Source: Azolla caroliniana (taxonomy: Eukaryota > Plantae > Polypodiophyta). From it: a DNA stretch of 64,000 nucleotides. The notes under the pieces were generated by a model, which was not told the origin of the DNA, did no database searches, and saw only the letters and a program-made list of their open reading frames with translations. The stretch spans positions 28,210,001-28,274,000 of the forward strand of contig JBHGNT010000002.1 of the NCBI GenBank assembly GCA_043228905.1. Direction: 5' to 3'. Positions 5,497-59,395 of this stretch are shown one piece after another. A program made the position numbers and the translations under genes. Position 1 is the stretch's first letter. The number at the start of each line of letters is the position of its first letter.

Positions 5497-5506
5497 AACT
5501 CCCCCT

Positions 5507-8500: not shown

Positions 8501-9580
8501 GTCTCCTATGCCGGCAATCCGGCACGTACCTTCATTTCCCATCCGAACACAGCCATGCTCACCGGCTGTGTAGGATGAGAAGTATCTTCTTTCCGGGGTC
8601 AGGTGGAACGACGCTCCGGAATCGACCACCCAGGTCGTCTCATCGCCGGCAATGTTTAGCTCACCTTCTTCGGTGATGAGCATGATTTCTTCCTCACTTG
8701 CCGCGAGTGCCGTCGTTCCTTTCCTGTCCTGCCCTCGCCGATCCGAACCATTCCGGTCCGTGGCTCCCCGGTAAGCACCGTTCCGTTCCGAAGACTTCTT
8801 CGAATCGGTGTCGTCGGCTCCGTTGTCTTTTCGGTAATGCCGACAATTCTTTCGGAAGTGCCCCGGCTTCCCACAGTGGAAGCATGTGGGCCTTCCTGTT
8901 GACTGCGACCGGGTCCCCGACTTCTCCCGTCTTTGCGGACTCCGGTTCCGTTGTCTTCGCCGATCCGATTCGGTAAACAACATCTTCGGATCGGAGGCCG
9001 GTTCTTTATCTCTCCGACGCGCTTCTTCGTTCAAAATACTTGTCTTTACGGTTTGTAGGGACAAGTTATCTTCGGTGCAGGAGGTGCTGAGAGTCACCAC
9101 CAAGTTCTCCCAGCTTTCCGGCAATGTACACATCAGGATGATGGCTTGCATTGCATCCTCCAACGGGAACTTGATCGCCGCAAGCTGGTTCACGAATCCC
9201 ATGAACGTGCTTACGTGTTCCACCATACTCTCGCCGTCCCGGTACTTGAGGTTCACTATCTTCCTCATCAGGGAGGTCCGGTTCAACGCATTCTTCCTCT
9301 CGTAGAGGCCCGACAGCTTCCGCCACATCTCATATGCGTTGGTGTCGTTCGCCACATGTTGTAGAACGCTCACGTCTACGTATTGCCGAATGGTTGCTAC
9401 GGCTTTCCGGTTCAGAAGCCTCCATTCCGACTCAAGTACCCCCTTCGGTATTTCCGACCTGTCGATCGGTTCGTACAGGTTCCGAACAATCAGAAGATCC
9501 TCCATCTTGATCTTCCAGTCGGCGTAATTCTGCGCATTCAGCACCATCATCCCCGGCTGCCCGCTGCCGCCGCCTTCCAT
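5507..9580 (-). CDS. Copia Gag-Pol polyprotein (1357 aa): gag, CCHC knuckle, protease, integrase, RT, RNase H
   Basis: CFHCGKPGHFRKNC, WVVDSGAS, WHKRLCH/CTDC, HTDVC..ADNGGE, LYVDDML, DSD..TEAEY..CDSQ. The integrase catalytic Glu is replaced (NGLAKRMN). Confidence 0.93.
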   Translation of the reverse strand: MEGGGSGQPGMMVLNAQNYADWKIKMEDLLIVRNLYEPIDRSEIPKGVLESEWRLLNRKAVATIRQYVDVSVLQHVANDTNAYEMWRKLSGLYERKNALNRTSLMRKIVNLKYRDGESMVEHVSTFMGFVNQLAAIKFPLEDAMQAIILMCTLPESWENLVVTLSTSCTEDNLSLQTVKTSILNEEARRRDKEPASDPKMLFTESDRRRQRNRSPQRREKSGTRSQSTGRPTCFHCGKPGHFRKNCRHYRKDNGADDTDSKKSSERNGAYRGATDRNGSDRRGQDRKGTTALAASEEEIMLITEEGELNIAGDETTWVVDSGASFHLTPERRYFSSYTAGEHGCVRMGNEGTCRIAGIGDVWLTTPTGCKMLLKDVRHVPEVRLNLISAGRLDDEGYTGSIRNGVMKFSKGSLIVARARKVNTLYLMNARLCPEELNVAADTAGELWHKRLCHMSEKGMKRLAEDNLIPVKHVHLEKCTDCLAGKQNRTSFHSRPPTRRSAPLELVHTDVCQVETKSHGGAQYFVTFIDDHSRRLWTAPMKTKDQVLSVFKELHARVERESGKKLKAIRADNGGEYRGQFQEYCRSKGIRLEFTVPKTPELNGLAKRMNRTIMERVRSMLAHAKLPKGFWAEAMSTATYVINRSPSVPLDGDTPQRVWTGREVSYRHLKVFGCLAYVHVAKDRRGKLDPKTRPCIFLGYGDDEFGYRVWDPVDKKIFQSRDIIFMENKTLADWESEKKMKRSKSTGEDQPYEEQSRPARDRLALEDPAEDGEETEPAEEDESDTGTGPDPEMDSDEEESEEPVTEAPERRYPLRERRPPRRFPEPEHLLLTDEGEPESFEEAKHDTQSRRWLSAMQDEMDSLHENHTYELVELPKGKRALRNKWVFKLKPGDAGNPPRYKARIVVKGFQQKKGVDFDEIFAPVVKMTSIRTVLSIAASMDLEVEQMDVKTTFLHGDLEEEIYMQQPEGFEKKGKEHLVCRLKKSLYGLKQAPRQWYRKFDSFMTDEGYLKTQSDHCVFVKKFEGGDFLILLLYVDDMLIVGRDQVKIRMLKKALHRTFSMKDLDPARQILGMHIIRDRSKKQLWLSQEKYVPKVLKRFNMSEARPVGSTLPANCKLSNKQSPKTKAEKEDMMKVPYASAVGSLMYAMVCTRPDIGYAVGVVSRYMSNPGKEHWNAAKWILRYLKGTANVCLRFGSGKPELDGFTDSDMSADADTSRSTSGYVMTYAGGAVSWQSRLQKTVALSTTEAEYMAAVEAGKEIIWMKDFIRELGIRQEEYRLYCDSQSAIHLAKNAAYHSRTKHIQRRYHWIRERIEDKEFVLTKVHTDENGSDMLTKVLTPDKLEACRKRIGLERHPMPK

Positions 9581-9594
9581 TTTCTGCAACAGTC

Positions 9595-9606
9595 GCTCTG
9601 ATACCA
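9595..9606 (-). other. C1 primer-binding site (tRNA-iMet)
   Basis: Minus strand TGGTATCAGAGC, 3 nt from the 5' LTR. Confidence 0.9.
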
Positions 9607-9609
9607 GTT

Positions 9610-10213
9610 TGTAGAGTAATCGACGCTCCGATTAACCTTCACCACTCGGCCACAACCGAGTAAGCACGAATCAATGCAGCAGAAAATAGGAACCACAGAG
9701 AAAGAACACGAATACACAGGGATTAACGTGGAAAACCCTAGACGGGAAAAACCACGGGAGTACAAGACTCCAAACCAAACACTATGCACAGAGAAATATA
9801 CAATGGCGAGCTGCAAGGCGACGACCTTGAGCTCGTTGTCCTCGCCACAGGCGGCGGAAATACACAGAGGCGTCGACCTCCTCCTCTCTCACGCTCTATC
9901 TCTCTCACAGCTGCTCTCTCTTCACTCCTCTTGAGTGGAAAAAAAGAAAAATAAGAAGCAACGTTAAAACTGTTTGCCCTAAGTCATATTTATACACATA
10001 TGACTTTGGGGCTATTTACAACTATAGCCTCAAGGGCCCTTGGCGAACATATTCACAGATATGTCCCCGCATCCGGATCTCGCTCCGGGTACATTCGTCA
10101 TCCGGCTCCGAAGCCGGGGTCTTCATCATCCGGTTCCGAAACCGAAACCGGGCTTGTCGGCATTCATCTCCGATATCCGACCATCCCATCCGAAAGGGAC
10201 CGTAATCCCAACA
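9610..10213 (-). repeat. C1 5' LTR
   Basis: Matches 4893-5496. Confidence 0.95.
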
Positions 10214-10218: not shown

Positions 10219-11491
10219 GGGGGGGGGGGGGGGAGTATAATACTTTGTCTAAATTTGTGGAAGAGATGATGATTTTAATGGAGGATGAAGCATTGCTAGG
10301 GAGTGAAAGGGAGAGTTGCTTATATGTTTATTAATGTTCAGATTTGGAGAGTGTTTTCCTCTTTTCTTTGTTATGTGGACTGAATGCAAAAGATTTTAGG
10401 TTTCTCACTACGATGACCGATGATGGTGTGGTAACAGGACGAGAGGATGAGTGATGATGGTGTGGGGGCCTAAGTAGATCATGAGGGAAGGAGGAAATAA
10501 TCTACATTCATTTTGTTGTTATTTATACAAGAACTTGGAGATATTCAGTGAGATGGTTGATGTGGACTGAATGAAGATTTTTTTGTTTTAAGGATGACTC
10601 AAGATGGTGTGTGGGCTGAAGCATTGTTTTTTGAGGTGATAAGGTTACTATAATGTCATTTTGTTGTGATAGGTACATCGTTTGGGAGATTTCCGTCATC
10701 GACATGGCTAATGTTATAAGGACAACTTTGCTTGGGGAAGTCGTCCTTATAGAGGGAAAAGGGGGGGGGGGGGAATGTATATATATACTTCGTCTAAATT
10801 TATGGAAGATATGAATGATTTTAATGGAGGATGAAGCATTTCTAGGGAGTGAAAGGGAGAATTGGTTATGTTTTTATTAATTTTCAAGTTTGGAGATTGT
10901 TTTCCTCTTTTCTTTGTTATGTGGACTGAATGAAGAAGATTTTAGGTTTCTCACTACGATGACCGATGATGGTGTGGTAACATGACGAGAGGATGAGTGA
11001 TGATGGTGTGGGGGCCAAAGCAGATCATGAGGGAAGGAGGAAATAGTCTACATTCATTTTGTTGTCATTTATACAAGAACTTGGCAATATTCGGCGAGAT
11101 GGTTGATGTGGGCTGAATGAAGAATTTTTGTGATAAGGATGACTCAAGATGGTGTGTGGGTCGAAGCATTGGTTTTTTTTTTAGGTGATGAGGTTACTAT
11201 AATATCAATTTGTTGTCATAAGTACATCATTTGGGCTGAATGAAGAATTTTTGTGATAAGGATGACTCAAGATGGTGTGGGGGTCGAAGCATTGGTTTTT
11301 TTTTTAGGTGATGAGGTTACTATAATATCAATTTGTTGTCATAAGTACATCATTTGGGCTGAATGAAGAATTTTTGTGATAAGGATGACTCAAGATGGTG
11401 TGTGGGTCGAAGCATTGGTTTTTTTTTTAGGTGATGAGGTTACTATAATATCAATTTGTTGTCATAAGTACATCATTTGGGAGATTTCCGT
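10219..11491. repeat. ~540-bp tandem repeat array, copies 2-3
   Basis: The unit polyG-(AT)n-cttcgtctaaattt...ggaggatgaagcatt... recurs at ~10219 and ~10761. Confidence 0.9.
11110..11478. repeat. 123-bp triplication inside tandem unit 3
   Basis: gggctgaatgaagaatttttg starts at 11110, 11233 and 11356. Copies are near-identical. Confidence 0.9.
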
Positions 11492-12056
11492 TGTCGTGAA
11501 GATTTTCGTCCATAGGCGAAAACCGGGGTGGAATAGGCAAATCGGTGGTGTGCACCATGTGCACACGTATATTAGGAAATGGTGTATAGAAATAAGAGGG
11601 GAAATTTTATCCCACATTGTAAGGTCCCTCCCTCCTTTGGCTATAAATGGAAGGGAGGGGTCACTTATGAAGGGGTTGCCTATTTTGAGAGAGAGAGGCA
11701 TACCACTTAGGTCGAGGGTTTCCTATTCGGTTTTAGGGTTTCGGTTAGGGTTTTCTTCTTGGGTTTCCTTTAGGGTTTTACTATACTTCGCTACTTGCTT
11801 ATTCTTCTAGGGTTTTTCTCATAGTCGTTTGGTGCGGCCATGGCGGCCACCATTGTTGTAATCATTCGCTTGTTTTTAATATAGCTTGTTGTGGATCTTG
11901 CTTCCATCTATTTTGGTCTATGCTTATGTGCTACTCTTCATCTTCTCATCCGGTGTTAAGCTTCCATTTCTCATATCTTATTCTTTCTCCTCTACTCCCT
12001 AGTCCAAGACCCCAGTGGTCCCGCCCTTCTACACGCACGCGCGTAACAATGCGACA
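11492..12056 (+). mobile_element. Solo LTR of the Gypsy group (related to G1/G2), 565 bp
   Basis: TGTCG...CGACA termini. 4-bp TSD CCGT (11488-11491 and 12057-12060). Starts TGTCGTGA like G1 and G2. Shares ccaagaccccagtggtcccgc with the 3' part of the G1 LTR. Confidence 0.88.
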
Positions 12057-20400: not shown

Positions 20401-22139
20401 AGAGGAAGATACCGGAATTCGAAACCGGCAACGATGAGTCAGATCGGTGCGTATCCGACTCCGGAAAGGAGAAAGGCGGATCTTCGGCAACGAAGACCGA
20501 ACTGGCCAATAAGGGCCTCAAATCAGGTGACAATGCGTTGCGCCGATCAACCCGCCAGAAGGATCCCGTCATGCGGTACGGGTACAATGAATACATGGCG
20601 CATCATTATGCGTACATGACTAAGGTGACAGAAGTGCATGAGCCGGAGAGCTACGCAGAAGCGGCAAAGGAAGCAAATTGGCGTGCCGCTATGGACAAAG
20701 AAATGCGGGCACTCGATGCCAACGAAACTTGGGACCTAGTTGATCCTCCCCGTCACTGTAAACCGATCGGATGAAAGCGGGTGTACAAGGTCAAGTACAA
20801 CGCCGACGGTTCTGTTAACCGGTACAAAGCCCGGTTAGTGGCGAAGGGATACGCGCAGACCCACGGAATTGACTACGACGAGACCTTCGCCCCTGTGGCG
20901 AAGATGACGACGGTTCGTGTGGTACTGGCGGTTGCTGCCGCAAGGGGGTGACATCTTCACCAGATGGATGTGAAGAACTCCTTCCTTCAAGGAGAGCTTG
21001 AAGAAGAAGTCTTTATGACTCAGCCCCCCAGATTTCAATCGGAGATGAGCAAGTCGGCGGTATGCCGACTGAAGAAGTCGCTTTACGGCTTGAAGCAAGC
21101 CCCCCGAGCCTGGAACGCGAAGATCACGCACCGCTTGCGTAAGCTGGGGTTTGTTGTCTCTAAGTCGGACTCTTCGTTGTTCATCCGGCAAGGCTCTGAC
21201 GAGTCCGGTATGTATACTCTTGTATGTGGATGATTTAGTCATCACCGGACCAGGTCTTCCCGAAATCAACCGCGTCAAGTCCCAGTTGTCGGACGCATTC
21301 GAAATGAAGGACCTGGGGGACCTTCATTATTTTCTTGGGATCGAAGTGATCCGGACCCCCGACGGCATATTGCTCTCACAATGACATTACGTGTTGAATA
21401 TGCTATATAAGTTCGGCATGACGGATTGCCGACCTGTCTCCACACCCCTGGACCGGAACCAGAAGCTCCGTCCCAACTCCGGACCGGCCTGCAATGAGAA
21501 ACGGTTTCGACAGGTTGTCGGAAGCCTGATCTACTTAACCATCACCCGACCCGACATCACCTATCCAGTCGGCATGGTAAGTCAGTTCATGCAGAAGCCG
21601 ACCGTGGAGCACCTTCATTGCGCGCAACGAATATTACGATATGTCAGCGGCACTAAGGACCGGGGACTACTATACCGTCGAGGTATACCAGAAGAGCTTG
21701 TCGGTTACACAGATGCTAACTGGGCCGGCGATGCGTCTGATCGCCGCTCCACTTCCGGATACATGTTCTCCATAGGTAGCGCAGCCGTTGCGTGGAGCAG
21801 CAAGAAGCAGCCCACAGTGGCTTTGTCAAGCACTGAGGCTGAGTACCGGGTCGCTACCGTTGCCACTTGTGAAGCCATCTGGCTTCGGCGACTACTTCGA
21901 GACTTGCGGATCGAGGTACCGACCCCGATCCCGATTTACTGCGATAACATGAGCAGCCTGCAGCTCGCCAGAAACCCTGTGTTCCATGCTCGCACAAAGC
22001 ACATCGAGGTGCACTACCACTTCGTGCGTGAGCAGGTCCTGAGCGGTGAAGTTGACCTACGGTGTCGTGATGTGGCATGTCTAGTGCGAGAAAAAATCAA
22101 AAATTGAGGATCCACACACATTTCACGAATACTTGTAAA

Positions 22140-22262
22140 AATGAAAATAAATAAACCTAGGTCACAATGGCATTGAGTGCATGTAGAGGGTTGCAAGTAA
22201 GATTTGAACCTTGCACCTCTAAGATAAGAGGCAATTACCTTGCCACTAAAGCTACTACTAAG
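22140..22262 (-). promoter_or_regulatory. tRNA-like Pol III unit (A box, B box, T-run) in the G1 5' LTR
   Basis: Minus strand A box TAGCTTTAGTGG (22243-22254), then 32 nt, then B box GGTTCAAATCT (22200-22210). T4/T5 runs at ~22137-22147. Confidence 0.6.
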
Positions 22263-22725
22263 TGCTTTAGATGTTCTATATTTCTTTCTCATATTCAGTA
22301 TTCCGTAGGAAACAAACGAACAAAACCGTGTACACAAAACCACGGTTTTAAGCCCATGGTTTCCTGCATGTCTCAAAATTGTGTGCATAGAAACCATGGC
22401 TCCAAGCCCATGGTTTTGTGCATGGACAAACCTATAAAACCCCTAGTACGGCTTGTGTAAGGGGGGGGCTCAATATGATATGACCATCATCATCACCATC
22501 AATAATATAAGCTTCTATTTCTTCTTCTTCGCATCTATCTTGTAATTATTTATCTACTTCTGAAAGTGTACAATCTTCAATCTTCTCAAGTGTAATAGGT
22601 CTTCCTCCAATCTTACATTCACATCGCCCTCTTCTCAATACCTTGACGGACATCCTCCTTGGTCCAAGACCCCGGTGGTCCCGCTCAAGCGAAGCACGCT
22701 CGCACGCGCATCTTCGCGACATTTT

Positions 22726-22743
22726 TGGTGAACCCGACGTGAA
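22726..22743 (+). other. G1 primer-binding site (tRNA-Trp)
   Basis: TGGTGAACCCGACGTGAA, complementary to the 3' end of plant cytosolic tRNA-Trp (...TTCACGTCGGGTTCACCA, recalled sequence). Confidence 0.88.
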
Positions 22744-22758
22744 GAGCGGTAGGGGAGG

Positions 22759-23550
22759 ATGAAGCTGGACGAGGAATATCTAATGAAGGCAATGTCAAAG
22801 ATGATGATGGAGTTTTCAAGAGAAGGGAAAACACGACATGCGGCCCAACAAGCCGTCGAAAGCATGATCAAGCAAGTCGGGTTTTTCGATGGAGGCAAAG
22901 TCCAAAAATTTCTAAAGGCCTACAATGCCGAAATGGATTCAAGAGGAGTGGAGGAAGCAATGAGGCTGGAGTACTTTTGCCGAGTGGTGGCCAAACCAAT
23001 CTTCGAAGAGATTAAAGAGATTCAAAAAACTCACGATTCGTGGGTGTCCTTCAAAGAAGCTTTACGAGAGTCATATGGTTACGAAGAGCAAAAGGGACGA
23101 GGTCTGTATGAGTTTCACGAATGGGTGTCATCGAGAAAGACCCACCAGAGTGCTATGCATGCATTCGTTGAGTTTGAGTATCGCTTCGCTCAACTCTCGG
23201 ACCGGGATCAAAGATTGGTGGGGGTGAATAAAGTTCTGATGTTTGTAAAGTCAATCAATCGGAATGAAAGGAAGACCATTGGAATCCAACTCGAGGATGA
23301 CAATGGTGAAAATGGCCTCACTGAGGATTGGGCCAAAGTGGAAAGGGTATGCCGACAACACGATAAGAGGGAGATGAGACTCTCATCGACAACAACACGA
23401 CCCACAAGGGATGTTCAAAGGAGAATGGGATGTGGCAATAAAAACCCCCTTGAAGGAAGAAAGCTCGAAGAGGGAAGCTTCGAAAGAACTCAACATAGAA
23501 GCCTTGATGAGAGAGGCAATAATGAACTTAAAGGCACAAGTCGAGGTTGA
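22759..23550 (+). CDS. Gag-like protein of G1 (probably frameshifted near 23420 and continued by acidic repeat ORFs to ~24700)
   Basis: Aligns by eye with G2 Gag: VGFFDGGKVQKFLKAYNAEM/IGRFSGKDATKYLASYGAEM, VLMFVKSI/VLLFVKSV, GLTEDWAKVERVC/GLTTDWAAVKRVC. Confidence 0.8.
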   Translation: MKLDEEYLMKAMSKMMMEFSREGKTRHAAQQAVESMIKQVGFFDGGKVQKFLKAYNAEMDSRGVEEAMRLEYFCRVVAKPIFEEIKEIQKTHDSWVSFKEALRESYGYEEQKGRGLYEFHEWVSSRKTHQSAMHAFVEFEYRFAQLSDRDQRLVGVNKVLMFVKSINRNERKTIGIQLEDDNGENGLTEDWAKVERVCRQHDKREMRLSSTTTRPTRDVQRRMGCGNKNPLEGRKLEEGSFERTQHRSLDERGNNELKGTSRG

Positions 23551-25109
23551 AGAGAAGCTGAAAACAAAACCGAGGAAAATGGTGATCGACGAAGAGGAGA
23601 CCTCCCGACAAATGCAGACTAATGGTACAGCCAATACGAAGGCCCAGGTTTGGTATGACAGTACCATGGGAGAAGGTGTGAAACAAGCCACCTTCTCGAC
23701 TTATGGAGGAACGACGGTCAAGAGAAAGGCCGAAGACTCGAGAGCGGGAAATGCTGCTTAAAGAGTGGACGAGCATTTCGGAACACATGTTGTGTCCGAA
23801 ATATCGAGTAATGAATGTGCAAGCATGAGGGAAGCTTGTGTGATCAAGGGATGTAAAGAGTGCAAGGTCGACGTGATTGAGGTGGTAGCCACGAGGAACG
23901 ACATCGAGTCGCAGATGGCTAAGGAAGAGTCCACGGTGAATGACCGTGTCGAGACATTCCCAACACTTGATCTAGAGACTTGGGCAGTTGCGTCCGAGAG
24001 CCAACATGAGACCCAAGAGACGGAAAGTGGTGGGGAAGAAAATATTGAAGATAATGTGAATAACAACATTGAGCGAAAGATGGCTACGGATGAGAAGACG
24101 GTGACCGATGGTGTCGAGGTTCTCCCCACAATTGTTCATGAGACTTCGCCAGTTGTGCCCGAGTGTCAACGTGAGACCGGAGAGACGAAAGATGGCGGCT
24201 GGAAATCGAAGGACCGAAACAACGATGAGGAGGATGACCACAGACGAAGGAATCCCTCCACACCGATTCTGGAGACTTTGGCAGTTGTGCCCGAGAACGA
24301 ACATAAGACCGAAGAGATGGAAGGTGGTGGCGAGGAGATGAGGGTCGACGCCAGCGATACAGAGGAACGGTGGCCAACAAGGACGCCAAAAACAAAGCTA
24401 CAATAGAGTTCGATGAAGAGCCAGATAGCGGCAAGAAAGGAAGAACCAGAATACAATCCGGATGGAAGATGACGCGGTTGGTATTCCGACCCGAACGGAA
24501 GCCGACCCGAACGAGAGTTGATCAAACGGGCCCGACCCAACCGAAAACCGGATGGAAACTGACCCGGACGAAAGTCGATCGTCTGAGTCTGATTCGGCCG
24601 AATGTGAATCCGGAGGAAGGCCGACCAAGCCAAAAGCTGATTGGTCGAGACAAACAAAAGTTGAACAGACGAGTCGTGACACCCGGTTGAGGCTAGTGAG
24701 CATAAGGAAAGGCAAGCATGAGACGAGAAATGATGATAAAGGAAAGTTAGGTGACCAAGGAGATGGCCAAGATGAAGGTGGCACATGCATGAGGCATGAA
24801 GCGTTATGCTCGGGAGGAGCAAAGGGAGCCATGACAACTAGACATGGCAATAAAAAAGGTGAGCGAATGATATGGTGGATCGGATGGCAACGACAGTTCA
24901 AAGTAGACGGCAAAAAGACGATGCGTACGAGGCGCAAGAAAGGAGGAAATCAAACACCAACCGCCTTTGACCCTTCCACATCACTCTTTTCTTCTTGGCA
25001 CATACCGGAGGATGTGCGGTTTGGTGGGGGTGGATGTCGTGATGTGGCATGTCTAGTGCGAGAAAAAAATCAAAAATTGAGGATCCACACACATTTCACG
25101 AATACTTGT

Positions 25110-25235
25110 AAAAATGAAAATAAATAAACCTAGGTCACAATGGCATTGAGTGCATGTAGAGGGTTGCAAGTAGGATTTGAACCTTGCACCTCTAAGATAA
25201 GAGGCAATTACCTTGCCACTAAAGCTACTACTAAG
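25110..25235 (-). promoter_or_regulatory. tRNA-like Pol III unit in the G1 3' LTR
   Basis: A box 25216-25227. Consensus B box GGTTCAAATCC at 25173-25183. Confidence 0.6.
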
Positions 25236-26758
25236 TGCTTTAGATGTTCTATATTTCTTTCTCATATTCAGTATTTCGTAGGAAACAAACGAACAAAACC
25301 GTGTACACAAAACCACGGTTTTAAGCCCATGGTTTCCTGCATGTCTCAAAACTGTGTGCATAGAAACCATGGCTCCAAGCCCATGGTTTTGTGCATGGAC
25401 AAACCTATAAAACCCCTAGTACGGCTTGTGTAAGGGGGGGGCTCAATATGATATGACCATCATCATCACCATCAATAATATAAGCTTCTATTTCTTCTTC
25501 TTCGCATCTATCTTGTAATTATTTATCTACTTCTGAAAGTGTACAATCTTCAATCTTCTCAAGTGTAATAGGTCTTCCTCCAATCTTACATTCACATCGC
25601 CCTCTTCTCAATACCTTGACGGACATCCTCCTTGGTCCAAGACCCCAGTGGTCCCGCTCAAGCGAAGCACGCTCGCACGCGCATCTTCGCAACAACGGTA
25701 TGTTCATACGGATCGGCAAGTTGCCGACATCTTCACCAAGCCGCTCGGATCGGACAAGTTGCAGCACTTTACCGACATGCTTGGTATTCAGCATCTCGAC
25801 GTGCCGCACTTGAGGGGGAGAAGCAAGGGCAAAGTCTCTACCGAAACGGGCAATGGCCAAAAAATTGTTGAACCCGTCGGTAAGAGGAGAGCCGAAAGAA
25901 GAGGAGACAAGAAGATGAAGGAAGCCGAGTCGACAAAGGAAGTCGACACATCCGAACAGGTCGGAGCAAGCGGCTGTGAAGAAGAGTTGTGCACTCAGGA
26001 AGAGAAGTGCATGCTGTGCGGAGGTCATCACGACGGCACTGACCATGATGCAGAGTCGAATGAAGAATTCGATTTCGGTTCACCGGCTGAAGAAGCCAAG
26101 GGAAGCATGGAGAAGGCCAAGACTCGGATGTGGTTCGATGTGGTGAGAGGCCTGAAGCCGGAAGTTGAATCGGAGTGTACCGATTCGGACAAGAGCTGGA
26201 ACGAGTCGAAGACAGCTGACTCGGACCAACAGATGGATTCGGATGAGTCGGATCAACTGAAGGCCAAGGGGACACGGACACAGCAGAAGTCGATGCCATC
26301 GTGGGAGAACCGACGGATCGGCAAGCGCCGGAGTCACAGCAACGTGAGTGCTGAGATGGGCCTATTGAGCAGACATGCCGACCGAGAGGGTCGAGGCGCG
26401 CAGAACCAAAGGGGTCGCGGCAAACGGGACCGGACCGGACGAGGAGCGCGAGCAAGGCGGAGTGACGCCAGGAGAAGTCGGTTGGAAGAACCGACTGCCA
26501 CAGAGGTCAACACTACGACCCCACCTCAGGTTGAGCTTGAGGGGGAGTGTTGAGCGGCAAGCTCAACCAGAGCCGGATCGGCTGAATAAGCCGGAGCCGG
26601 TAAGCGAGACGGATCGGGCGAAACGGATCGGTATGACGGTGAGCAACCGAACCGGCAAGCAGTGGAGGCCGGGTGCAATCCGTAACTGGAAGTCCAATCG
26701 AAAGCCTAGTATAGGATAGACTACTAGGTAGCTATAGTCTCGTAGTAAGTGTCAGATG

Positions 26759-27092
26759 TGTTGGGATTTCGGTCCCTCCGGATGGGATGTCCGGAGATGA
26801 ATGACGGCAAGCCCGGAGGCTGTTACGGAACCGTATGATGAAGAGTACCCGGCATGAAGCCGGATGAAGAGTACCCGGTTACGGAGCCGGATGCTGAAGA
26901 CCCCGGTTACGGAGCCGGTTGACGTATGTACCCGGAGAGAGAGATCCGGATGCGGGGACATATCTGTGAATATGTTTGCCAAGGGCCCTTGAGGCTATAT
27001 TTGTAAATAGCCCGAAAGTCATATGTGTATAAATATGACTTAGGGCAAACAGTTTTGTTGTTGCTCAATTTTTATGCGAAGTGAGAGCAGCC

Positions 27093-27130
<38 letters not shown>

Positions 27131-30100
27131 CGAAGAGGTCGTTGCCTCTGTGTATTACCGCCGCCTGTGGCGAAGACAGTGAGCTCAAGGTTGTTGCCTT
27201 GTAGCTTCACCAGTGTACATCCCTGCTCATAGTGATAGTTGGAGTTTGAGGACTCCCGTGGTTTTTCCCATTTAGGGTTTTCCACGTAAAATATCCAGTG
27301 TACCTTTCTCTCTATTGTCCCCGTGCACTTTGTATTTCACGTTTTCTGAGAGTTGATCCTATTCCTCGGTTGTGGCCGAGCACTGTTTTTCAACAAATTG
27401 GTATCAGAGCGACGGTAACACAGAAAATGGAAGGCGGCGGTAGTGGGCCTCCGGGCATGATGGTGTTGAACTCACAGAACTACGCCGACTGGAAGATAAA
27501 GATGGAAGACCTTCTCATCGTACGAGACCTGTACGAACCGATCGACAATGCCGAGATACCCAAGGGAGTAATAGAGTCGGAGTGGAAGCTCCTGAACCGG
27601 AAAGCCGTAGCGACGATTCGGCAATATGTCGATGTAAGCGTCCTACAACATGTGGCGAACGCCACCAACGCATATGAGATGTGGAAGAAGCTGTCGGGCC
27701 TCTACGAGAGGAAGAATGCGTTGAACCGGACCTCCCTGATGAGGAAGATAGTGAACCTCAAGTACCGGGACGGCGAGAATATGGTGGAACACGTGAGCAC
27801 GTTCATGGGATTCGTGAACCAGCTTGCGGCGATCAAGTTCCCGTTGGAGGATGCAATGCAAGCCATCATCCTGATGTGTACATTACCGGACAGCTGGGAG
27901 AACTTGGTGGTGACTCTCAGCACCTCCTGCGCCGAAGATAACTTGTCCCTACAAACGGTAAAGACAAGTATTTTGAACGAAGAAGCGCGACGGAGAGATA
28001 AAGAACCGGTCTCCGACTCGAAGGCGCTGCTTACCGAATCGGAACGGGGAAGACAATGGAACCGGAGTCCGCAAAGACGGGAGAAGTCGGGGACCCGGTC
28101 GCAGTCAAGAGGAAGACCCACATGCTTCCACTGTGGGAAGCCGGGGCACTTCCGGAAGAATTGTCGGCATTACCGAAAAGACAACGGAGCCGACGACACC
28201 GATTCGAAGAAGTCACCGGAGAGAAACGGTGCATACCGGGGAGCCACGGACCGGAGAGGTCCGGATCGGCGAGGGCAGGACCGGAAAGGAACGACGGCAC
28301 TCGCGGCAAGTGAAGAGGAGATCATGCTCATCACCGAAGAAGGTGAACTAAACATTGCCGGCGATGAGACTACCTGGGTGGTCGATTCCGGAGCGTCGTT
28401 CCACCTGACCCCGGAAAGCAGATACTTCTCATCCTACACAACCGGTGAACATGGCTGTGTTCGGATGGGAAATGAAGGTACGTGCCGGATTGCCGGCATA
28501 GGAGACGTATGGTTGACAACCCCGACCGGATGCAAAATGCTGCTGAAGGATGTCCGACACGTTCCGGAGGTTCGATTGAACCTGATTTCGGCCGGGAGGC
28601 TAGACGATGAAGGCTACACAGGTAGCATCCGGAACGGCGTAATGAAGTTCAGCAAGGGAAGCCTGATAGTGGCTCGGGCCCGGAAAGTCAACACACTGTA
28701 CCTCATGAATGCCTGGTTGTGTCCGGAAGAGCTGAATGTGGCAGCCGACACTGCCGGTGAGCTGTGGCACAAAAGACTGTGCCACATGAGTGAGAAGGGG
28801 ATGAAGAGGCTTGCAGAAGACAACCTTATTCCAGTAAAGCATGTGCACCTGGAGAAGTGCACCGATTGCCTGGCCGGTAAGCAGAACCGAACCTCCTTCC
28901 ACTCAAGGCCACCGACGAGACGTAGCACACCATTGGAGTTGGTGCACACTGATGTGTGTCAGGTAGAAACGAAGTCACATGGCGGAGCCCAGTACTTCGT
29001 GACTTTCATTGATGATCACAGCCGGAAGCTGTGGACGGCACCGTTGAAGACAAAGGACCAAGTGTTGTCCGTCTTCAAAGAACTCCACGCGAGAGTGGAA
29101 AGAGAATCCGGCAAGAAGCTGAAAGCGATACGAGCGGATAACGGAGGAGAATACCGGGGGCAGTTCGCGGAGTACTGTCGCTCGAAGGGAATCCGGCTCG
29201 AGTTTACTGTGCCGAAGACGCCGGAACTGAACGGGCTGGCCGAGAGGATGAACCGGACCATAATGGAGAGGGTCCGGAGTATGCTAGCTCATGCGAAATT
29301 ACCCAAGGGGTTTTGGGCTGAGGCGATGTCGACGGCGACATACGTGATAAATAGATCACCCTCAGTACCTTTGGACGGAGACACGCCGCAGAGAGTGTGG
29401 ACCGGTAGGGAAGTATCCTACCGGCATCTAAAGGTGTTCAGGTGCCTCGCATATGTGCATGTGGCTAAGGACCGGAGAGGAAAGCTAGATCCAAAGACCC
29501 GGCCATGCATATTCCTCGGTTACGGCGATGACGAGTTCGGCTACCGAGTATGGGACCCGGTCGACAAGAAGATATTCCGGAGTCGTGATATCATCTTCAT
29601 GGAGAACAAGACACTTGCCGACTGGGAGTCGGAGAAGAAGGTGAAGAGCTCCAAGTCGACCGGTGAGGATCAACTCTACGAGGAGCAGTCCCGACCGGCA
29701 AGAGACCGGTTAGCACTCGAGGATCCGGCCGAAGACGGTGAAGAAACAGAACCGGCCGAAGAAGATGAAAATGATACCGGAACCGGCCCCGATCCCGAAA
29801 TGGATTCGGATGAAGAAAAATCGGAAGAACCGGTTACCGAAGCTCCGGAACGGAGATATCCTCTAAGAGAGAGAAGGGCCCCCCGGAGATTTCCGGAACC
29901 AGAGCACGTGCTGCTAACCGACGAAGGGGAGCCGGAGAGCTTTGAAGAAGCAAAGCATGACACCCAGAGCCGCAGGTGGTTGAGTGCCATGCAGGACGAG
30001 ATGGATTCCCTGCATGAGAACCACACATATGAACTTGTGGAGTTGCCGAAAGGAAAGCGGGCACTTCGAAACAAGTGGGTGTTCAAGCTGAAACCGGGAG

Positions 30101-31844
30101 ATGCCGAAAACCCCCCGAGATACAAAGCCCGGATCGTGGTGAAGGGGTTTCAGCAGAAGAAGGGCGTCGACTTCGACGAGATATTTGCCCCTGTAGTGAA
30201 GATGACCTCCATCCGGACGGTGCTGAGCATAGCGGCAAGCATGGACCTCGAGGTAGAACAGATGGACGTGAAGACGGCATTCCTTCACGGTGACCTCGAA
30301 GAAGAGATCTACATGCAGCAACCGGAAGGATTCGAGAAGAAAGGGAAGGAGCACCTGGTATGCCAGTTGAAGAAGAGCCTTTACGGACTGAAGCAGGCTC
30401 CCCGGCAATGGTACCGGAAGTTCGACTCCTTCATGACCGACGAAGGGTACCACAAAACGCAGTCTGATCACTGCGTGTTTGTGAAGAAGTTCGAAGGAGG
30501 AGACTCTCTAATACTCCTCCTGTACGTGGACGACATGTTGATCGTCGGACGGGACCAGGTCAAGATACGGGCGCTGAAGAAAGCGCTTCACCGAACCTTC
30601 TCAATGAAGGACCTGGGTCCGGCGAGGCAAATACTAGGGATGCACATCATCCGGGACCGGAAGAAGAAGCAGTTGTGGCTGTCACAGGAAAAGTACGTGA
30701 CAAAGGTGCTTCACCGGTTCAACATGTCGGAAGCAAGACCGGTCGGGTCAACTCTCCCGGCAAACTGCAAGTTGTCCAGCAAGCAAAGCCCCAAGACAAA
30801 GGCTGAGAAGGAGGACATGATGAAAGTACCATATGCCTCTGCCGTCGGAAGCTTGATGTACGCAATGGTGTGTACAAGACCGGATATAGGATATGCAGTT
30901 GGAGTGGTGAGCCGGTACATGAGCAATCCCGGCAAAGAGCACTGGAACGCGGTCAAGTGGATACTCCGATACCTGAAGGGCACGGCAAACGTGTGCCTCC
31001 GATTCGGCTCCGGTAAGCCCGAATTCGACGGCTTTACCGATTCGGATATGTCGGCTGATGCAGATACCAGCCGGTCCACATCAGGGTATGTGATGACGTA
31101 TGCAGGTGGGGCTGTTTCGTGGCAGTCGAGGCTGCAGAAGACGGTTGCGCTGTCAACCACGGAGGCGGAGTACATGGCGGCTGTTGAAGCCGGCAAGGAA
31201 ATAATATGGATGAAGGACTTCATTAGAGAGCTCGGTATCCGGCAGGAGGAGTACCGACTCTACTGCGATAGTCTGAGTGCCATCCACCTTGCGAAGAACG
31301 CGGCCTACCATTCCCGGACGAAACACATCCAGCGTAGATACCACTGGATCCGGGAAAGAATAGAAGACAAGGAGTTCGTGCTGACGAAGATCCACACGGA
31401 CGAGAACGGGTCGGATATGCTGACCAAGGTGCTCACACCCGACAAGCTGGAAGCATGCCGGAAGAGGATCGGGTTGGAGAGACATCCCATGCCGAAGTGA
31501 AGGGGGAGTTTGTTGGGATTTCGGTCCCTCCGGATGGGATGTCCGGAGATGAATGACGGCAAGCCCGGAGGCTGTTACGGAACCGTATGATGAAGAGTAC
31601 CCGGCATGAAGCCGGATGAAGAGTACCCGGTTACGGAGCCGGATGCTGAAGACCCCGGTTACGGAGCCGGTTGACGTATGTACCCGGAGAGAGAGATCCG
31701 GATGCGGGGACATATCTGTGAATATGTTTGCCAAGGGCCCTTGAGGCTATATTTGTAAATAGCCCGAAAGTCATATGTGTATAAATATGACTTAGGGCAA
31801 ACAGTTTTGTTGTTGCTCAATTTTTATGCGAAGTGAGAGCAGCC

Positions 31845-31888
<44 letters not shown>

Positions 31889-32153
31889 CGAAGAGGTCGT
31901 TGCCTCTGTGTATTACCGCCGCCTGTGGCGAAGACAGTGAGCTCAAGGTTGTTGCCTTGTAGCTTCACCAGTGTACATCCCTGCTCATAGTGATAGTTGG
32001 AGTTTGAGGACTCCCGTGGTTTTTCCCATTTAGGGTTTTCCACGTAAAATATCCAGTGTACCTTTCTCTCTATTGTCCCCGTGCACTTTGTATTTCCCGT
32101 TTTCTGAGAGTTGATCCTATTCCTCGGTTGTGGCCGAGCACTGTTTTTCAACA
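26759..32153 (+). mobile_element. Ty1/Copia element C5 (family A), intact, inserted in the C3 3' LTR
   Basis: LTRs 26759-27395 and 31511-32153 (one substitution seen plus a GA-repeat length difference). TSD AGATG. PBS-Met 27399-27410. PPT ~31498-31508. Confidence 0.97.
27427..31500 (+). CDS. Copia Gag-Pol polyprotein (1357 aa), catalytic motifs intact
   Basis: CCHC knuckle, DSGAS, HTD..ADNGGE..NGLAERMN, LYVDD and RNase H motifs. Near-identical to the C1 protein. Confidence 0.95.
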   Translation: MEGGGSGPPGMMVLNSQNYADWKIKMEDLLIVRDLYEPIDNAEIPKGVIESEWKLLNRKAVATIRQYVDVSVLQHVANATNAYEMWKKLSGLYERKNALNRTSLMRKIVNLKYRDGENMVEHVSTFMGFVNQLAAIKFPLEDAMQAIILMCTLPDSWENLVVTLSTSCAEDNLSLQTVKTSILNEEARRRDKEPVSDSKALLTESERGRQWNRSPQRREKSGTRSQSRGRPTCFHCGKPGHFRKNCRHYRKDNGADDTDSKKSPERNGAYRGATDRRGPDRRGQDRKGTTALAASEEEIMLITEEGELNIAGDETTWVVDSGASFHLTPESRYFSSYTTGEHGCVRMGNEGTCRIAGIGDVWLTTPTGCKMLLKDVRHVPEVRLNLISAGRLDDEGYTGSIRNGVMKFSKGSLIVARARKVNTLYLMNAWLCPEELNVAADTAGELWHKRLCHMSEKGMKRLAEDNLIPVKHVHLEKCTDCLAGKQNRTSFHSRPPTRRSTPLELVHTDVCQVETKSHGGAQYFVTFIDDHSRKLWTAPLKTKDQVLSVFKELHARVERESGKKLKAIRADNGGEYRGQFAEYCRSKGIRLEFTVPKTPELNGLAERMNRTIMERVRSMLAHAKLPKGFWAEAMSTATYVINRSPSVPLDGDTPQRVWTGREVSYRHLKVFRCLAYVHVAKDRRGKLDPKTRPCIFLGYGDDEFGYRVWDPVDKKIFRSRDIIFMENKTLADWESEKKVKSSKSTGEDQLYEEQSRPARDRLALEDPAEDGEETEPAEEDENDTGTGPDPEMDSDEEKSEEPVTEAPERRYPLRERRAPRRFPEPEHVLLTDEGEPESFEEAKHDTQSRRWLSAMQDEMDSLHENHTYELVELPKGKRALRNKWVFKLKPGDAENPPRYKARIVVKGFQQKKGVDFDEIFAPVVKMTSIRTVLSIAASMDLEVEQMDVKTAFLHGDLEEEIYMQQPEGFEKKGKEHLVCQLKKSLYGLKQAPRQWYRKFDSFMTDEGYHKTQSDHCVFVKKFEGGDSLILLLYVDDMLIVGRDQVKIRALKKALHRTFSMKDLGPARQILGMHIIRDRKKKQLWLSQEKYVTKVLHRFNMSEARPVGSTLPANCKLSSKQSPKTKAEKEDMMKVPYASAVGSLMYAMVCTRPDIGYAVGVVSRYMSNPGKEHWNAVKWILRYLKGTANVCLRFGSGKPEFDGFTDSDMSADADTSRSTSGYVMTYAGGAVSWQSRLQKTVALSTTEAEYMAAVEAGKEIIWMKDFIRELGIRQEEYRLYCDSLSAIHLAKNAAYHSRTKHIQRRYHWIRERIEDKEFVLTKIHTDENGSDMLTKVLTPDKLEACRKRIGLERHPMPK

Positions 32154-32353
32154 AGATGCTCGTGTGAGCATTGAAGTACATGGTACTTCTGTCAGTCCCA
32201 AGAGGACTTGTATAAATAGTGCTACTTAGCACAGTGTGTAAATAGAGTCTGAAAATAATTTTGAAATTACGTTCTGCTCTCTCCGTCTCTCTCTCTCTCT
32301 CTCTCTGTTGTTCTCTGTTTTACGCTTCCGCAAACACTCACGTTTTCAGATGT

Positions 32354-32365
32354 AAAATGGGAAGA

Positions 32366-32401
<36 letters not shown>

Positions 32402-32520
32402 TTCGTCTAAATTGGTGGAAGATATGGAGGATGAAGCATTTCTTGGGAGTGAAAGGGAGATTGTTTATGTGTTTATTAATTTTTAGATTTGGAGAGTGTT
32501 TTCCTCTTTTCTTTGTTGTA
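32354..32520. repeat. Tandem repeat array, final partial copy with (TA)n
   Basis: aaaatggg..(TA)n cttcgtctaaattggtggaagatatggaggatgaagcatt... Confidence 0.85.
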
Positions 32521-32635
32521 GATGATGGGGAAGAAAACTGTGAAAATCTATATCACTTTGGTTCCAGGTAATTGAATCACAAATTTAATTTGCAGAAATT
32601 TGTGATTGAATCACTCAACTAAAGAAATTTGTGTT

Positions 32636-32793
32636 TGAAGGGTATTCTGGTAAATAGGGCTTCTAGATTTGAGTGTATAATTACTTTATAAAGTGTATTT
32701 TTTTTGGACATAAGGGTAATTTGGTAAATCTGGAATTTCCAGGGGCATTCTAGTAAATAGACAAACTTCCAAGGGTATCCTAGTACTTTTCCC
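32636..32793. mobile_element. Possible Mutator-like (MULE) terminal inverted repeat, right end only
   Basis: Repeated aggg(t/c)a(t/a)t(c/t)t(g/a)gtaaat motifs ending ...agggtatcctagtacttttccc, resembling plant MULE/MITE termini (GGGAAAA...). No partner end found. Confidence 0.4.
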
Positions 32794-35082
32794 TAAAAAG
32801 AATATGCTAAAGTTTTGAAATCATTACATTGTATTTAATCCTTAGATATCCCCCAAATTATGGCACCACATGGGAACATGAATGTGCATTGGCAATGCTT
32901 GTGCTTTTCAACGATAAGATTGTGGGTTTGAGGTAAATGGGATCATTGTGTTACTCATGGAAATTTCAATTTGTGTTTCATGCACAGTCATAATTTGGTC
33001 AAGAAAACGAAATCGTTATCAACACATTTGAGTAATTCTTGATGAGTAAGGTCATTGATCACCTATAAAAAGGGATCGAGAGACATTGTAACACTATCGT
33101 TCTAATTTGAGTTTCATATAGTTATTAGTTAGTAAAATCTATGTCGTCTATTCTGTTAGTGTTTTACTGTTATGTTCGACTCAGTGACAACCTGCTATTT
33201 GTAAAGAATCGGGTATGATTCTTGTGTAGCGGAATAGGTGTGAACTGTGTGTATGAGAGAGAGAGAGAGAGTGAGGGTGAGAGTGAGTGAGAAGTAAGAC
33301 ACAGAGTATACACAAGGTAGATTGTATTAACAAAGGAGAAAGACTCAACATTATACAAAGAGGGAGGAGGGTGCTTTATATAGTCACCCTCTCTCTTCAT
33401 TAACTACACGACTCATGGAGCATGGGGAATGTGAAAGCTCATAAGTTATGTGTCATAGAATTTGATTCTATGACTCATACAAAATGCTAGAATACAAAGT
33501 GGTGACTTAATGGTGACTCTTGACCATTGGAGTGTCTATTCACTCTCAAGGTGAGTTCACACACTAGACCAAGTTGAGCTTGATTCTCAACACGCCCCCT
33601 CAAGCTCAAGTCGGGTCGGTTTTAGACGGTATCCGAAATCCACTTCTACTCGTGTCGGCGTTCCGGAGTCTGCATCGACTCGCATTTATGCGAAGTTGCA
33701 GAATCCGTGCTCCACCTTGCGTTGTGCGTAGTTGCAAAGTCTGTGCTTTGGCTTGCGTCTTTCTTCACGGCTTCGTTGCGCGGTTGCGGAATCTACGCGT
33801 TATTGCGATTGCGTAGTGTCTTGCGTACTCCCCCTCAAGCTTGGCAGGTCAGGGATCGTCAATCCGAGATCGGTCATGAATTGCCATAGCTTGTCGGCTC
33901 CTAAAGCTTTAGTGAAGATGTCGATTGTTTGAAGATTGGTGCTAATGTGTTGTAGGTCGACATCGCCAGCTAGAACGTGCTCTCGGATGAAGTGATAGTG
34001 CACTTCGATGTGCTTTGTCCACGCGTGGAACACCGAGTTCTGAGCCAAATAAATATTGCTCATGTTGTCGCAATAAAGGGAGGTCGGATCCTTGATGGGT
34101 ACACCCAGATCCTTCAAAATCCTCTTGAGCCATACGGTTGCGCCCCTATATTCCGCCTCCGTACTCGAAAGAGCGATGGTAGGTTGCTTCTTGCTACTCC
34201 ACGATATTGCTTTGCTGCCGAGGGAGAAAACAAATCCGGAGGTTGACCTTCTATCGGCTTTGTTGCCAGCCCAATCGGCGTCTGTGTACCCCTCGAATTG
34301 TATTGGCATCGCGGTCTTGTAGAGGATGCCGCAATCCATTATGTTGCTCACGTTGTCGAGGTATTCCTCGCGGATGCGTGGAATGAGGCGGGACCTCGGG
34401 GGTCCTGTACCAAAGAGCAAGAGAGAAAGGACAAGAGACCCACTACGTGCGAGCGTAGATTCACAGGGACACGGCCCTTCGACACAAAGACGCGAGTGGG
34501 ACAGCGACACAGAAAGACACGAATGTATTTATGTATTAACAAAGACAGCAACAAGAACACGGAAGCAACAAAACACGAAGTCGGTTACAACCGAACAAGC
34601 CGGCGAACAGATGTCGATGCCTGTTCGTAAACGCACAGAAAGACAGGAGCAGGTTGGAGGTGCTGCCGGAAGCACTCGGGCATTCCTCAGAGCAGTGAGA
34701 GCCTCCTGAAACCTGCACCGAAAGAAGCTATGGAATTTGCGAACCAGAGAGAGAGAGAAGCCTTCGCCCACAAACCGACAGCACTTCGTCCTCGACTCTT
34801 CGCGATCCCTTCCTCCTCCTCGTCTCCCTCCTTTTATAGGCAAGAAGGGAGTCGTTTCCTATTAACTTCCTACCTACCGAATCTACCTACCTAGGATCTC
34901 CCATGTCCCTAATTCTCTCCTATGTTCGACACAAGGCGTACGTGCGTGAAGAGACGGTTCCTATGCTCCGGCGCACCGATTCCGCTTGTGGACGGTTTTC
35001 TTCATGACATTCGCCCCCACCTAACCGGGCATCCACCGGCATGCGCCAAATTGAGTTGGGACGGAGAAAACCGGTCCAGCCT

Positions 35083-38576: not shown

Positions 38577-38583
38577 AAAATCC
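38521..38583 (-). other. Putative -1 programmed ribosomal frameshift signal
   Basis: G-GAT-TTT heptamer immediately before the gag-pro stop, 6-nt spacer, then a GGGCTG/CAGTCC stem whose loop can pair with downstream CTCGG and CCCCAC. Confidence 0.7.
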
Positions 38584-59128: not shown

Positions 59129-59395
59129 ATGGCCTCTACTGTTAACATGGATGTGCTCTTGAACAAGGAACCCGCTGTGCTGTCCGGTACTATCGCAAAG
59201 ACGAAGATCGTGTGCACATTGGGCCCGAAATCCCGAGATGTTCCTGTCATCGAGAGCCTCCTCCGCGCGGGCATGAATGTTGCTCGCTTCAATTTCTCCC
59301 ATGGCACTCATGATTATCATCAAGAGACCCTGGATAACCTCCATATTGCCCAACACAACACCCAGCTCATGTGTGCAGTCATGCTTGACACCAAG
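59129..59395 (+). CDS. PK: Cytosolic pyruvate kinase, exon 1
   Basis: KTKIVCTLGP..ARFNFSHG..MLDTK. GT donor at 59396, phase 0. Confidence 0.95.

What the first reader, a model, noticed from the sequence alone, without database searches (positions are those of the whole stretch)
22140..22262. Gag-only LTR element carries a tRNA-like RNA polymerase III unit in both LTRs (possible tRNA analogue of Cassandra)
Seen: the minus strand of the G1 LTR reads TAGCTTTAGTGG (A box), 32 nt, then GGTTCAAATCC (B box; consensus in the 3' LTR at 25173-25183, one change in the 5' LTR). It has D-arm-like (ctt/aag), anticodon-arm-like (cctct/agagg) and T-arm-like (agg-ttcaaat-cct) stems, and T4/T5 runs ~55 nt further on, predicting a ~120-nt antisense RNA. 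It is not seen in the LTRs of G2 or the related solo LTR. Established: this A/B spacing is that of tRNA genes and tRNA-derived SINEs, and Cassandra TRIMs carry 5S rRNA Pol III promoters in their LTRs. Inference: a non-autonomous family has captured a Pol III unit and copies it in U3, possibly as a chromatin barrier, a promoter or a regulatory small RNA.
Basis: partly seen in the sequence, partly recalled or inferred. Interest (0 to 1): 0.8.

Follow-up and report, generated by a model that had tools for sequence, protein, structure and literature searches.

The report
Backward tRNA-type promoter in fern LTRs
A family of non-autonomous jumping genes in what is likely a fern carries conserved tRNA-like promoter motifs backwards in each terminal repeat, pointing the wrong way to start the element's own RNA and likely acting instead as a chromatin barrier beside its main promoter, which makes it a variant of the tRNA-bearing 'Helenus' elements described in 2024.

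Summary
The motifs are there: A box, 32 nt, B box and T4/T5 runs, antisense in U3 of both LTRs of a recent 3.6-kb gypsy-type element without pol. Corrections: the A box has one extra T, the motif alone is modest (17 of 400 shuffled windows match), and no cloverleaf forms; a 10-bp hairpin holds the B box in its loop. The unit is family-wide. A solo LTR 17% diverged keeps 23 of 23 box bases (P about 0.02). In contigs of four runs, 0 of 13 fixed box sites vary against 32 of 126 others (P 0.014-0.03; 15 of 55 rows hidden). A tRNA analogue of Cassandra is already published (Helenus, Kojima 2024), and this scan met Helenus-type elements and antisense tRNA-like units in gypsy elements on other DNA. 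This element fails the Helenus definition: it is long, gag-coding and antisense, so the unit cannot drive the genomic RNA. Best reading (0.4): a captured SINE/tRNA head kept as a TFIIIC/Pol III site shielding the LTR's Pol II promoter. A passenger SINE remains close (0.3). Nothing functional was tested. New variant of a known kind; interest 0.45.

The parts
22059..22062 (+). left 4-bp target-site duplication ACGG, inside the RNase H end of a copia element
   Evidence: same 4 bases at 25695-25698
22063..22721 (+). 5' LTR of G1 (TG...CA, 659 bp)
   Evidence: 5 substitutions and 1 indel against the 3' LTR
22137..22147 (-). T4 (22147-22144) and T5 (22141-22137) runs, predicted Pol III terminators; the AT-rich stretch just before them varies in length among copies
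   Evidence: insertion variants; L001 keeps the T4 but not the T5
22188..22219 (-). 10-bp hairpin with the B box in its loop (8 of 10 pairs in the window copies, 10 of 10 in L001)
   Evidence: no compensatory change among 3 sequences
22200..22210 (-). B box, 5' LTR copy (core intact; position 62 differs)
22243..22254 (-). A box with one extra T, 5' LTR copy
22277..22283 (-). AT-rich AAATATA upstream of the unit, possible TATA-like element for TFIIIB (inferred)
   Evidence: sequence; a similar motif lies upstream in diverged contexts (loose ends)
22326..22424 (.). long U3 fold-back between the unit and the TATA box
   Evidence: z -7.75, 0 of 200 shuffles; L001 z -6.99
22433..22439 (+). TATAAAA, likely Pol II TATA box of the LTR
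   Evidence: sequence; kept in L001; function inferred
22726..22743 (+). primer-binding site, 20 of 20 bases shared with G2; tRNA-Trp by recall, not tested
   Evidence: tRNA-Trp is used by plant non-chromoviruses (PMC6317226)
22759..24899 (+). gag-like region, broken in this copy (frame change near 23450, further breaks downstream); no RT, RNase H or integrase
   Evidence: 31-35% identity to the first ORF of G2; relative P0138 is one 719-aa frame, 76% identical, without CCHC or protease motif
25018..25034 (+). polypurine-tract region; 30 of 36 bases shared with G2 over the adjoining stretch
25035..25694 (+). 3' LTR of G1 (660 bp)
25110..25120 (-). T4 and T5 runs, 3' LTR copy
25173..25183 (-). 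B box, exact GGTTCRANYCC match; the only one in the window
25216..25227 (-). A box with one extra T, 3' LTR copy
25695..25698 (+). right target-site duplication ACGG

Best explanation
A pol-less, gag-carrying gypsy family has a tRNA-like A box/B box/T-run unit fixed backwards near the outer end of its LTR, likely captured from a SINE or tRNA gene and likely kept because TFIIIC and Pol III would bind it and hold open chromatin between the flanking DNA and the LTR's own Pol II promoter. Shown: anatomy, orientation, presence across the family, and boxes that change less than their flanks. Inferred: origin from a SINE or tRNA; binding of TFIIIC; a 115-125-nt by-product RNA from about 22261 to 22140; barrier action on the TATA box about 170 bp away, back to back with the unit; mobilisation in trans by a G2-type autonomous element. 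Because the unit is in U3, normal reverse transcription copies it from the 3' LTR into both LTRs (established LTR biology).
For: Orientation: PBS, gag and PPT read on +, the unit on -. Retention: solo LTR L001 differs at 110 of 636 aligned LTR sites but at 0 of 23 box sites (P 0.010, or 0.019 after allowing for methylation context); the search pattern that found it contained no box base. Family contigs of four runs (organisms A, C, D): 0 of 13 fixed box sites vary against 32 of 126 non-box sites and 10 of 32 spacer sites (Fisher 0.028; context-adjusted 0.014). The 3 box sites that do vary are the A-box R, the B-box Y and position 62. The base right after the A box is T in over 99% of family depth, giving the tRNA-like GGTA. 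Summed contig depth peaks over the B-box region, about 4-5 times its neighbouring U3 in X1, X6 and X13 (not a copy number). Diverged contigs that align only over the unit show a canonical A box, and their upstream flanks agree with each other (0.74-0.83 over 7-16 contigs per run), as expected if the unit travels inside a larger repeat and not as free insertions. The cloverleaf is lost while the boxes stay, which points to a promoter or binding site and not a tRNA. Precedent: tDNA barriers need TFIIIC and Pol III and work in either orientation (PMC2040200, abstract); mobile B2 SINE copies act as boundaries (PMC8136502, abstract).
Against: No functional datum was obtained: no occupancy, chromatin or transcript test. 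The A box has a non-canonical extra base. The motif alone arises in 4-20% of shuffled windows. The conservation tests are modest. One rests on a single pair picked by an exact 21-nt match next to the B box, which favours locally similar copies. The other rests on 40 of 55 table rows; the 15 hidden rows would hit a fixed site 70% of the time if random. I excluded position 62 after seeing the table, and with it P is 0.11. Three of the four runs come from one study, and diverged repeats that align because of the boxes add to the depth. Other LTR stretches are as invariant between G1 and L001 (22, 19 and 18 nt). The related G2 element, which retains pol, and the solo LTR at 11492-12056 lack the unit, so the lineage does not need it. 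The barrier precedents come from yeast and mouse; I saw none for plants.
Confidence: 0.4

Rival explanations
1. Passenger: a tRNA-derived SINE of the host inserted backwards into one ancestral LTR and has been copied since, with no use to the element.
For: The unit has SINE-like size and a variable AT-rich tail. A possible decayed target duplication flanks it in L001 (78 of 2000 shuffles as good). The depth peak would follow if a free SINE family exists. Relatives G2 and the solo LTR do without it. Kojima proposes SINE insertion as the origin of such units and notes that 'not a few' Repbase LTRs hold tRNA-like pieces.
Against: The boxes are intact across 17% divergence and vary only at degenerate sites. 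The target-duplication signal is absent in G1 itself (1810 of 2000 shuffles as good). Diverged contexts share their upstream flanks, which independent SINE insertions would not.
Confidence: 0.3
2. The product matters: Pol III makes a 115-125-nt antisense hairpin RNA that pairs with the 3' end of the element's RNA or yields small RNAs, as the Pol III cassettes in foamy-virus LTRs do.
For: Promoter, hairpin and terminators are all present. Only 2 of 19 hairpin-arm sites vary in the rows shown, and at one of them (25164) the majority letter pairs where the window's does not. The 4 variable sites in the anticodon-like stem would all keep pairing on the minus strand (read by eye, phase unknown). 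Foamy-virus LTRs carry Pol III miRNA genes with A/B boxes and terminators (PMC3993851, passages).
Against: The fold is unremarkable over the whole unit (z -1.1 to -1.8). The hairpin is too short for a plant pre-miRNA (own knowledge), has no compensatory change among 3 sequences and is symmetric, so it may matter as DNA. An antisense RNA would more likely feed silencing of the element (inference).
Confidence: 0.17
3. Not a Pol III unit: a conserved U3 palindrome or Pol II enhancer happens to resemble A and B boxes.
For: Chance match in 4-20% of shuffled windows; no tRNA model hit; the 17 nt upstream of the A box and the hairpin arms are about as conserved as the boxes.
Against: Variation falls on the degenerate box positions; diverged contexts show the canonical A box at the same place; spacing, the GGTA after the A box and the downstream T runs all fit.
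Confidence: 0.1
4. Cassandra/Helenus-type promoter: Pol III transcribes the element's genomic RNA from this unit.
For: The unit is in both LTRs of a non-autonomous element, as in TRIMp3.
Against: It is on the opposite strand to PBS, gag and PPT; in the 5' LTR it points out of the element; T4/T5 follow within 53-63 nt, and the minus strand of G1 holds 32 runs of 4 or more T; the LTR has its own TATA on +.
Confidence: 0.03

Closest known systems
Helenus (TRIMp3), Kojima 2024, PMC10886601 (read: main-text parts 1-4 of 6, legends and tables, 6 supplement passages, supplement part 8 of 11)
   Same: Non-autonomous LTR element with a tRNA-like unit in each LTR; boxes A and B kept, tRNA function lost; PBS and PPT present; proposed origin by SINE insertion.
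   Different: Helenus is 311-1263 bp and non-coding, with LTRs up to 323 bp. In all 18 complete LTR records of supplement part 8 and in those, including Selaginella Helenus-1_SMo, the boxes are on the written (sense) strand (read by eye). G1 is 3632 bp, gag-carrying, has 659-bp LTRs with a TATA box, carries the unit antisense, and makes 4-bp TSDs where plant Helenus makes 5. No fern is in its Table 1.
Cassandra TRIM (as described in PMC10886601; the original paper was not read)
   Same: Small-RNA-gene-derived Pol III motifs in the LTRs of a plant non-autonomous element.
   Different: 5S-derived, 565-860 bp, and transcription runs from the 5S part of the 5' LTR to that of the 3' LTR; G1's unit is tRNA-type and cannot make the element's RNA.
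TR-GAG non-autonomous LTR elements (PMC13570524, passages)
   Same: LTRs, PBS, PPT and a gag-type ORF without RT, RNase H or integrase.
   Different: The passages read report no Pol III unit; TR-GAG-like families keep GAG/PROT, whereas P0138 shows no protease or CCHC motif.
Phygy non-chromovirus Ty3/gypsy clade (Neumann 2019, PMC6317226, passages)
   Same: NCGN insertion preference: 4 of 4 TSDs seen fit (G1 ACGG, G2 ACGT, solo LTR CCGT, L001 ACGG).
   Different: Described as specific to Physcomitrella; no RT phylogeny was run here; G1 lacks pol.
Foamy-virus LTR Pol III miRNA cassettes (PMC3993851, passages)
   Same: Short Pol III units with A/B boxes and oligo-T terminators inside the LTR of a Pol II-driven retroelement.
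   Different: Experimentally shown miRNA precursors of animal retroviruses; no such product is shown here.
tDNA and SINE chromatin barriers (PMC2040200, PMC8136502; abstracts only)
   Same: TFIIIC/Pol III sites or SINE copies that bound chromatin domains; orientation-independent at fission-yeast cen1.
   Different: Host loci or free SINEs in yeast and mouse, not a module carried in an LTR.

Membership tests
Helenus / TRIMp3 | tRNA-like sequence with boxes A and B in the LTRs | tested here: met
   A box one edit from consensus, B box exact; no tRNA model hit
Helenus / TRIMp3 | TRIM size (under 1000 bp at screening; longest 1263 bp) | tested here: not met
   3632 bp, LTRs 659-660 bp
Helenus / TRIMp3 | No protein-coding capacity | tested here: not met
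   gag-like region; relative P0138 is a 719-aa frame
Helenus / TRIMp3 | Unit on the sense strand, able to promote the element's RNA (seen in the records read; not stated as a rule in the paper) | tested here: not met
   antisense to PBS-gag-PPT against 18 of 18 sense records
Helenus / TRIMp3 | PBS, PPT and TSD of an LTR element | tested here: met
   TSD is 4 bp
Helenus / TRIMp3 | Working Pol III promoter | not testable with these tools
   also unvalidated for Helenus itself
Cassandra | 5S rRNA-derived segment in the LTR | tested here: not met
   no 5S match in Rfam; motifs are tRNA-type
TR-GAG | LTR element with gag but no RT, RNase H or integrase | tested here: met
   internal region matches only G2's first ORF, PBS and PPT region; no pol family in the three G1 frames scanned
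TR-GAG | Capsid fold of the ORF product | tested here: inconclusive
   model pLDDT 68.6; top 3 Foldseek rows are HIV and dArc1 capsids but E 1.4-1.7; best Z 5.5, Arc lobes Z 4.6-5.0
Phygy clade | NCGN target preference | tested here: met
   4 of 4 TSDs
Phygy clade | Placement by RT/RH/INT phylogeny | not tested
   no reference set was on hand; G1 has no pol
Free tRNA-derived SINE | Dispersed copies with their own TSDs and unrelated flanks | tested here: inconclusive
   no genome held; no further copy in the window; diverged contigs share flanks; TSD-like repeat weak in L001, absent in G1
Functional tRNA gene | Cloverleaf with acceptor stem | tested here: not met

The most novel reading that the evidence does not exclude
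A plant LTR retrotransposon lineage carries its own portable chromatin barrier: an antisense Pol III unit, maintained by selection across diverged subfamilies and several species, set back to back with the LTR's Pol II promoter so that each new copy resists silencing from its flanks. Because it cannot drive the genomic RNA, it would show that small-RNA-gene modules in LTRs (TRIMp3 included) can be kept for chromatin reasons and not only as promoters.
Probability: 0.3. Interest if true: 0.75.

Novelty: new variant of a known kind. Interest (0 to 1): 0.45.

Why it matters
Cassandra, Helenus and Ajax are assumed to keep their small-RNA modules as promoters, which is validated only for Cassandra. 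Here the module points backwards in an element with its own TATA box, so promoter use for the genomic RNA is excluded by geometry. If the boxes are really under selection, this family separates the promoter role from a chromatin or antisense-RNA role and gives a direct test of how a retrotransposon might avoid silencing in a repeat-dense plant genome. If the unit is a passenger, it is an ordinary captured SINE.

Tried and rejected
tRNA detection: ARAGORN 0 genes; Rfam none at gathering, no tRNA at E up to 10. First chance test (0 of 300) set aside because its A-box pattern allowed the extra base; replaced. Whole genome not held, so no census of LTRs or free SINEs. Collection scans: viral contigs 0 in 4 scans; genome contigs 0 in 2; metagenome contigs gave 1 locus. 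No RNA holder listed; run X23, RNA only by guess, gave 8 short diverged contigs and no near-identical cover: no evidence on expression either way. Capsid fold not established. Covariation on 3 sequences is uninformative (one search had a mis-registered structure string). The bacterial promoter scan does not apply to a plant and was not used. Priming of DNA synthesis by the antisense RNA was considered and rejected by inference: it would start inside U3 and lose the R end. Literature: searches listed no report of an antisense tRNA-like unit in the LTR of a gag-carrying plant element; the library lacks most subscription papers and Repbase, and I read only 1 of 11 parts plus 6 passages of the Helenus supplement, so antisense cases there cannot be excluded.

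Full report
1. The element. G1 spans 22063-25694. Its LTRs (22063-22721, 25035-25694) differ by 5 substitutions and 1 indel, and a 4-bp duplication ACGG flanks it inside a copia RNase H region, so the insertion is recent. On the + strand it has a primer-binding site (20 of 20 bases shared with G2), a gag-like region, a purine-rich tract and a TATAAAA at 22433. The gag-like region is 31-35% identical to the first ORF of G2 and is broken in this copy. A relative, P0138, is one 719-aa frame, 76% identical, without the CCHC and protease motifs that the G2-type protein P0139 has. Seventeen further relatives at 45-98% identity come from unnamed metagenome assemblies. No pol is present. A capsid fold is suggested but not established. 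Four of four TSDs in this group fit NCGN, the Phygy trait (PMC6317226, passages). The host is likely a fern. The PBS is tRNA-Trp by recall only.

2. The observation. The A box, 32-nt spacer, B box and T4/T5 runs are at the stated places on the minus strand of both LTRs and absent from the G2 and solo LTRs. The A box has one extra T. My first chance test (0 of 300 shuffles) allowed for that base and overstated the case; with the canonical consensus and one edit, 17 of 400 shuffled windows match with the 11-nt B box and 78 of 400 with the 10-nt one. No tRNA model recognises the unit. It folds as a 10-bp hairpin with the B box in the loop, not as a cloverleaf.

3. Family-wide or one copy? No genome is held. 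Of 24 runs listed, 20 hold part of G1, 2 of them half of its words or more; none is on record as RNA. I laid 7 of the 24 (X13 twice). In one search, summed contig depth peaks over the B-box region in all three DNA runs (X1: 145,120 against about 30,000-37,000 in neighbouring U3); depth here is not a copy number. Contigs bridge the unit to both LTR flanks in organisms A, B, C and D (tables 8). The one metagenome locus found, L001, is a solo LTR with its own ACGG duplication. It differs from the 3' LTR at 110 of 636 aligned sites but at 0 of 23 box sites (P 0.010, or 0.019 by methylation context within U3). In one search, 40 of 55 variant rows are shown, covering 35 positions. None of 13 fixed box sites varies, against 32 of 126 non-box sites (Fisher 0.028; context-adjusted 0.014). 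The three box sites that vary are the A-box purine, the B-box pyrimidine and position 62, where the 5' LTR's letter is the family majority. Limits: position 62 was excluded after seeing the table (P 0.11 with it); hidden rows may include box sites; three of the four runs share a study; L001 was picked by an exact match next to the B box; and other LTR stretches of 18-22 nt are just as invariant. Diverged contigs that align only over the unit have the canonical A box and upstream flanks that agree among themselves (0.74-0.83 in 7-16 contigs per run). This suggests that older repeat subfamilies carry the unit and argues against scattered SINE insertions, but only 30-letter summaries of those flanks were visible, and I could not show that they are LTRs. 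A decayed target duplication around the unit is weak in L001 (78 of 2000 shuffles) and absent in G1 (1810 of 2000).

4. How it most likely works. Shown: the unit is in U3, antisense, about 170 bp upstream of the TATA box and back to back with it, with a strong fold-back between them. In the 5' LTR it points out of the element, and T runs follow within 53-63 nt; the minus strand of G1 holds 32 runs of 4 or more T. It therefore cannot make the genomic RNA. Inferred: a SINE or tRNA head was captured once; reverse transcription copies U3 into both LTRs; the boxes, not the tRNA fold, are kept because TFIIIC and Pol III would bind there and limit the spread of silent chromatin towards the Pol II promoter. 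Pol III barriers work in either orientation in fission yeast (PMC2040200, abstract), and mobile B2 copies form boundaries in mouse (PMC8136502, abstract). I give this 0.4, a neutral passenger 0.3, a functional antisense RNA 0.17 (precedent: foamy-virus LTR cassettes, PMC3993851, passages), a coincidental motif 0.1 and a Cassandra-type promoter 0.03. None was tested by experiment.

5. Comparison. The tRNA analogue of Cassandra is published as Helenus (PMC10886601; I recalled the name, then read main-text parts 1-4 of 6, legends and tables, 6 supplement passages and supplement part 8 of 11). Helenus elements are 311-1263 bp and non-coding, and all 18 complete LTR records in part 8 have the boxes on the sense strand. 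G1 fails on size, coding capacity and orientation, so it is not a member and does not work like one as a promoter. It resembles TR-GAG elements in coding content (PMC13570524, passages). Kojima notes that other Repbase LTRs hold tRNA-like pieces but followed up only short ones, so captured tRNA pieces in larger LTRs are not unheard of. Searches listed no description of this arrangement in plants; the library is incomplete. Earlier notes of this scan record Helenus-type elements in other genomes and antisense tRNA-like units inside fungal and other gypsy elements, one judged a passenger; these are unchecked leads and not support. One note gave me the pointer to the Neumann paper.

6. Verdict. 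A real, family-wide, modestly conserved tRNA-like motif set, in an arrangement that differs from Cassandra and Helenus in the one feature that bears on function. New variant of a known kind; interest 0.45, and 0.75 if a portable barrier is shown.

Noticed in passing
window 22326-22424 and 25299-25397; L001 956-1060: A 99-nt fold-back of repeated CACAAAACCAYGG-type units in U3, just upstream of the TATA box; much stronger than the tRNA-like unit (z -7.75; L001 z -6.99) and variable in unit number among copies. Possible enhancer array or small-RNA source.
   Followed up: partly
window 22059-22062, 41400-41403, 11488-11491; L001 682-685: All four insertions of this gypsy group have 4-bp TSDs with a central CG (NCGN), a trait published only for moss Phygy elements, here in a likely fern.
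   Followed up: partly
window 34354-41399 (minus strand): G2: gag with CCHC and protease motif, RT/RNase H and integrase regions; shares PBS, PPT region and a U5 motif with G1 and is the likely type of helper. Its LTR lacks the unit.
   Followed up: partly
window 22655-22689; 11995-12024; L001 1577-1638: A U5 motif around GGTCCAAGACCCC is shared by otherwise unrelated LTRs of this group and shows a depth peak.
   Followed up: no
window 4893-10036 (minus) and 26759-32152 (plus): Two young copia elements about 95% alike with long open polyprotein frames (1374 and 1416 aa) and near-identical LTRs.
   Followed up: no
window 42987-43418: Tandem 54-bp repeat array within copia-derived sequence.
   Followed up: no
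window 59130-61687: Cytosolic pyruvate kinase gene with few, large exons; last exon 84-86% identical to Ceratopteris and Adiantum proteins against 76-81% for other named plants, the basis for calling the host a likely fern.
   Followed up: yes
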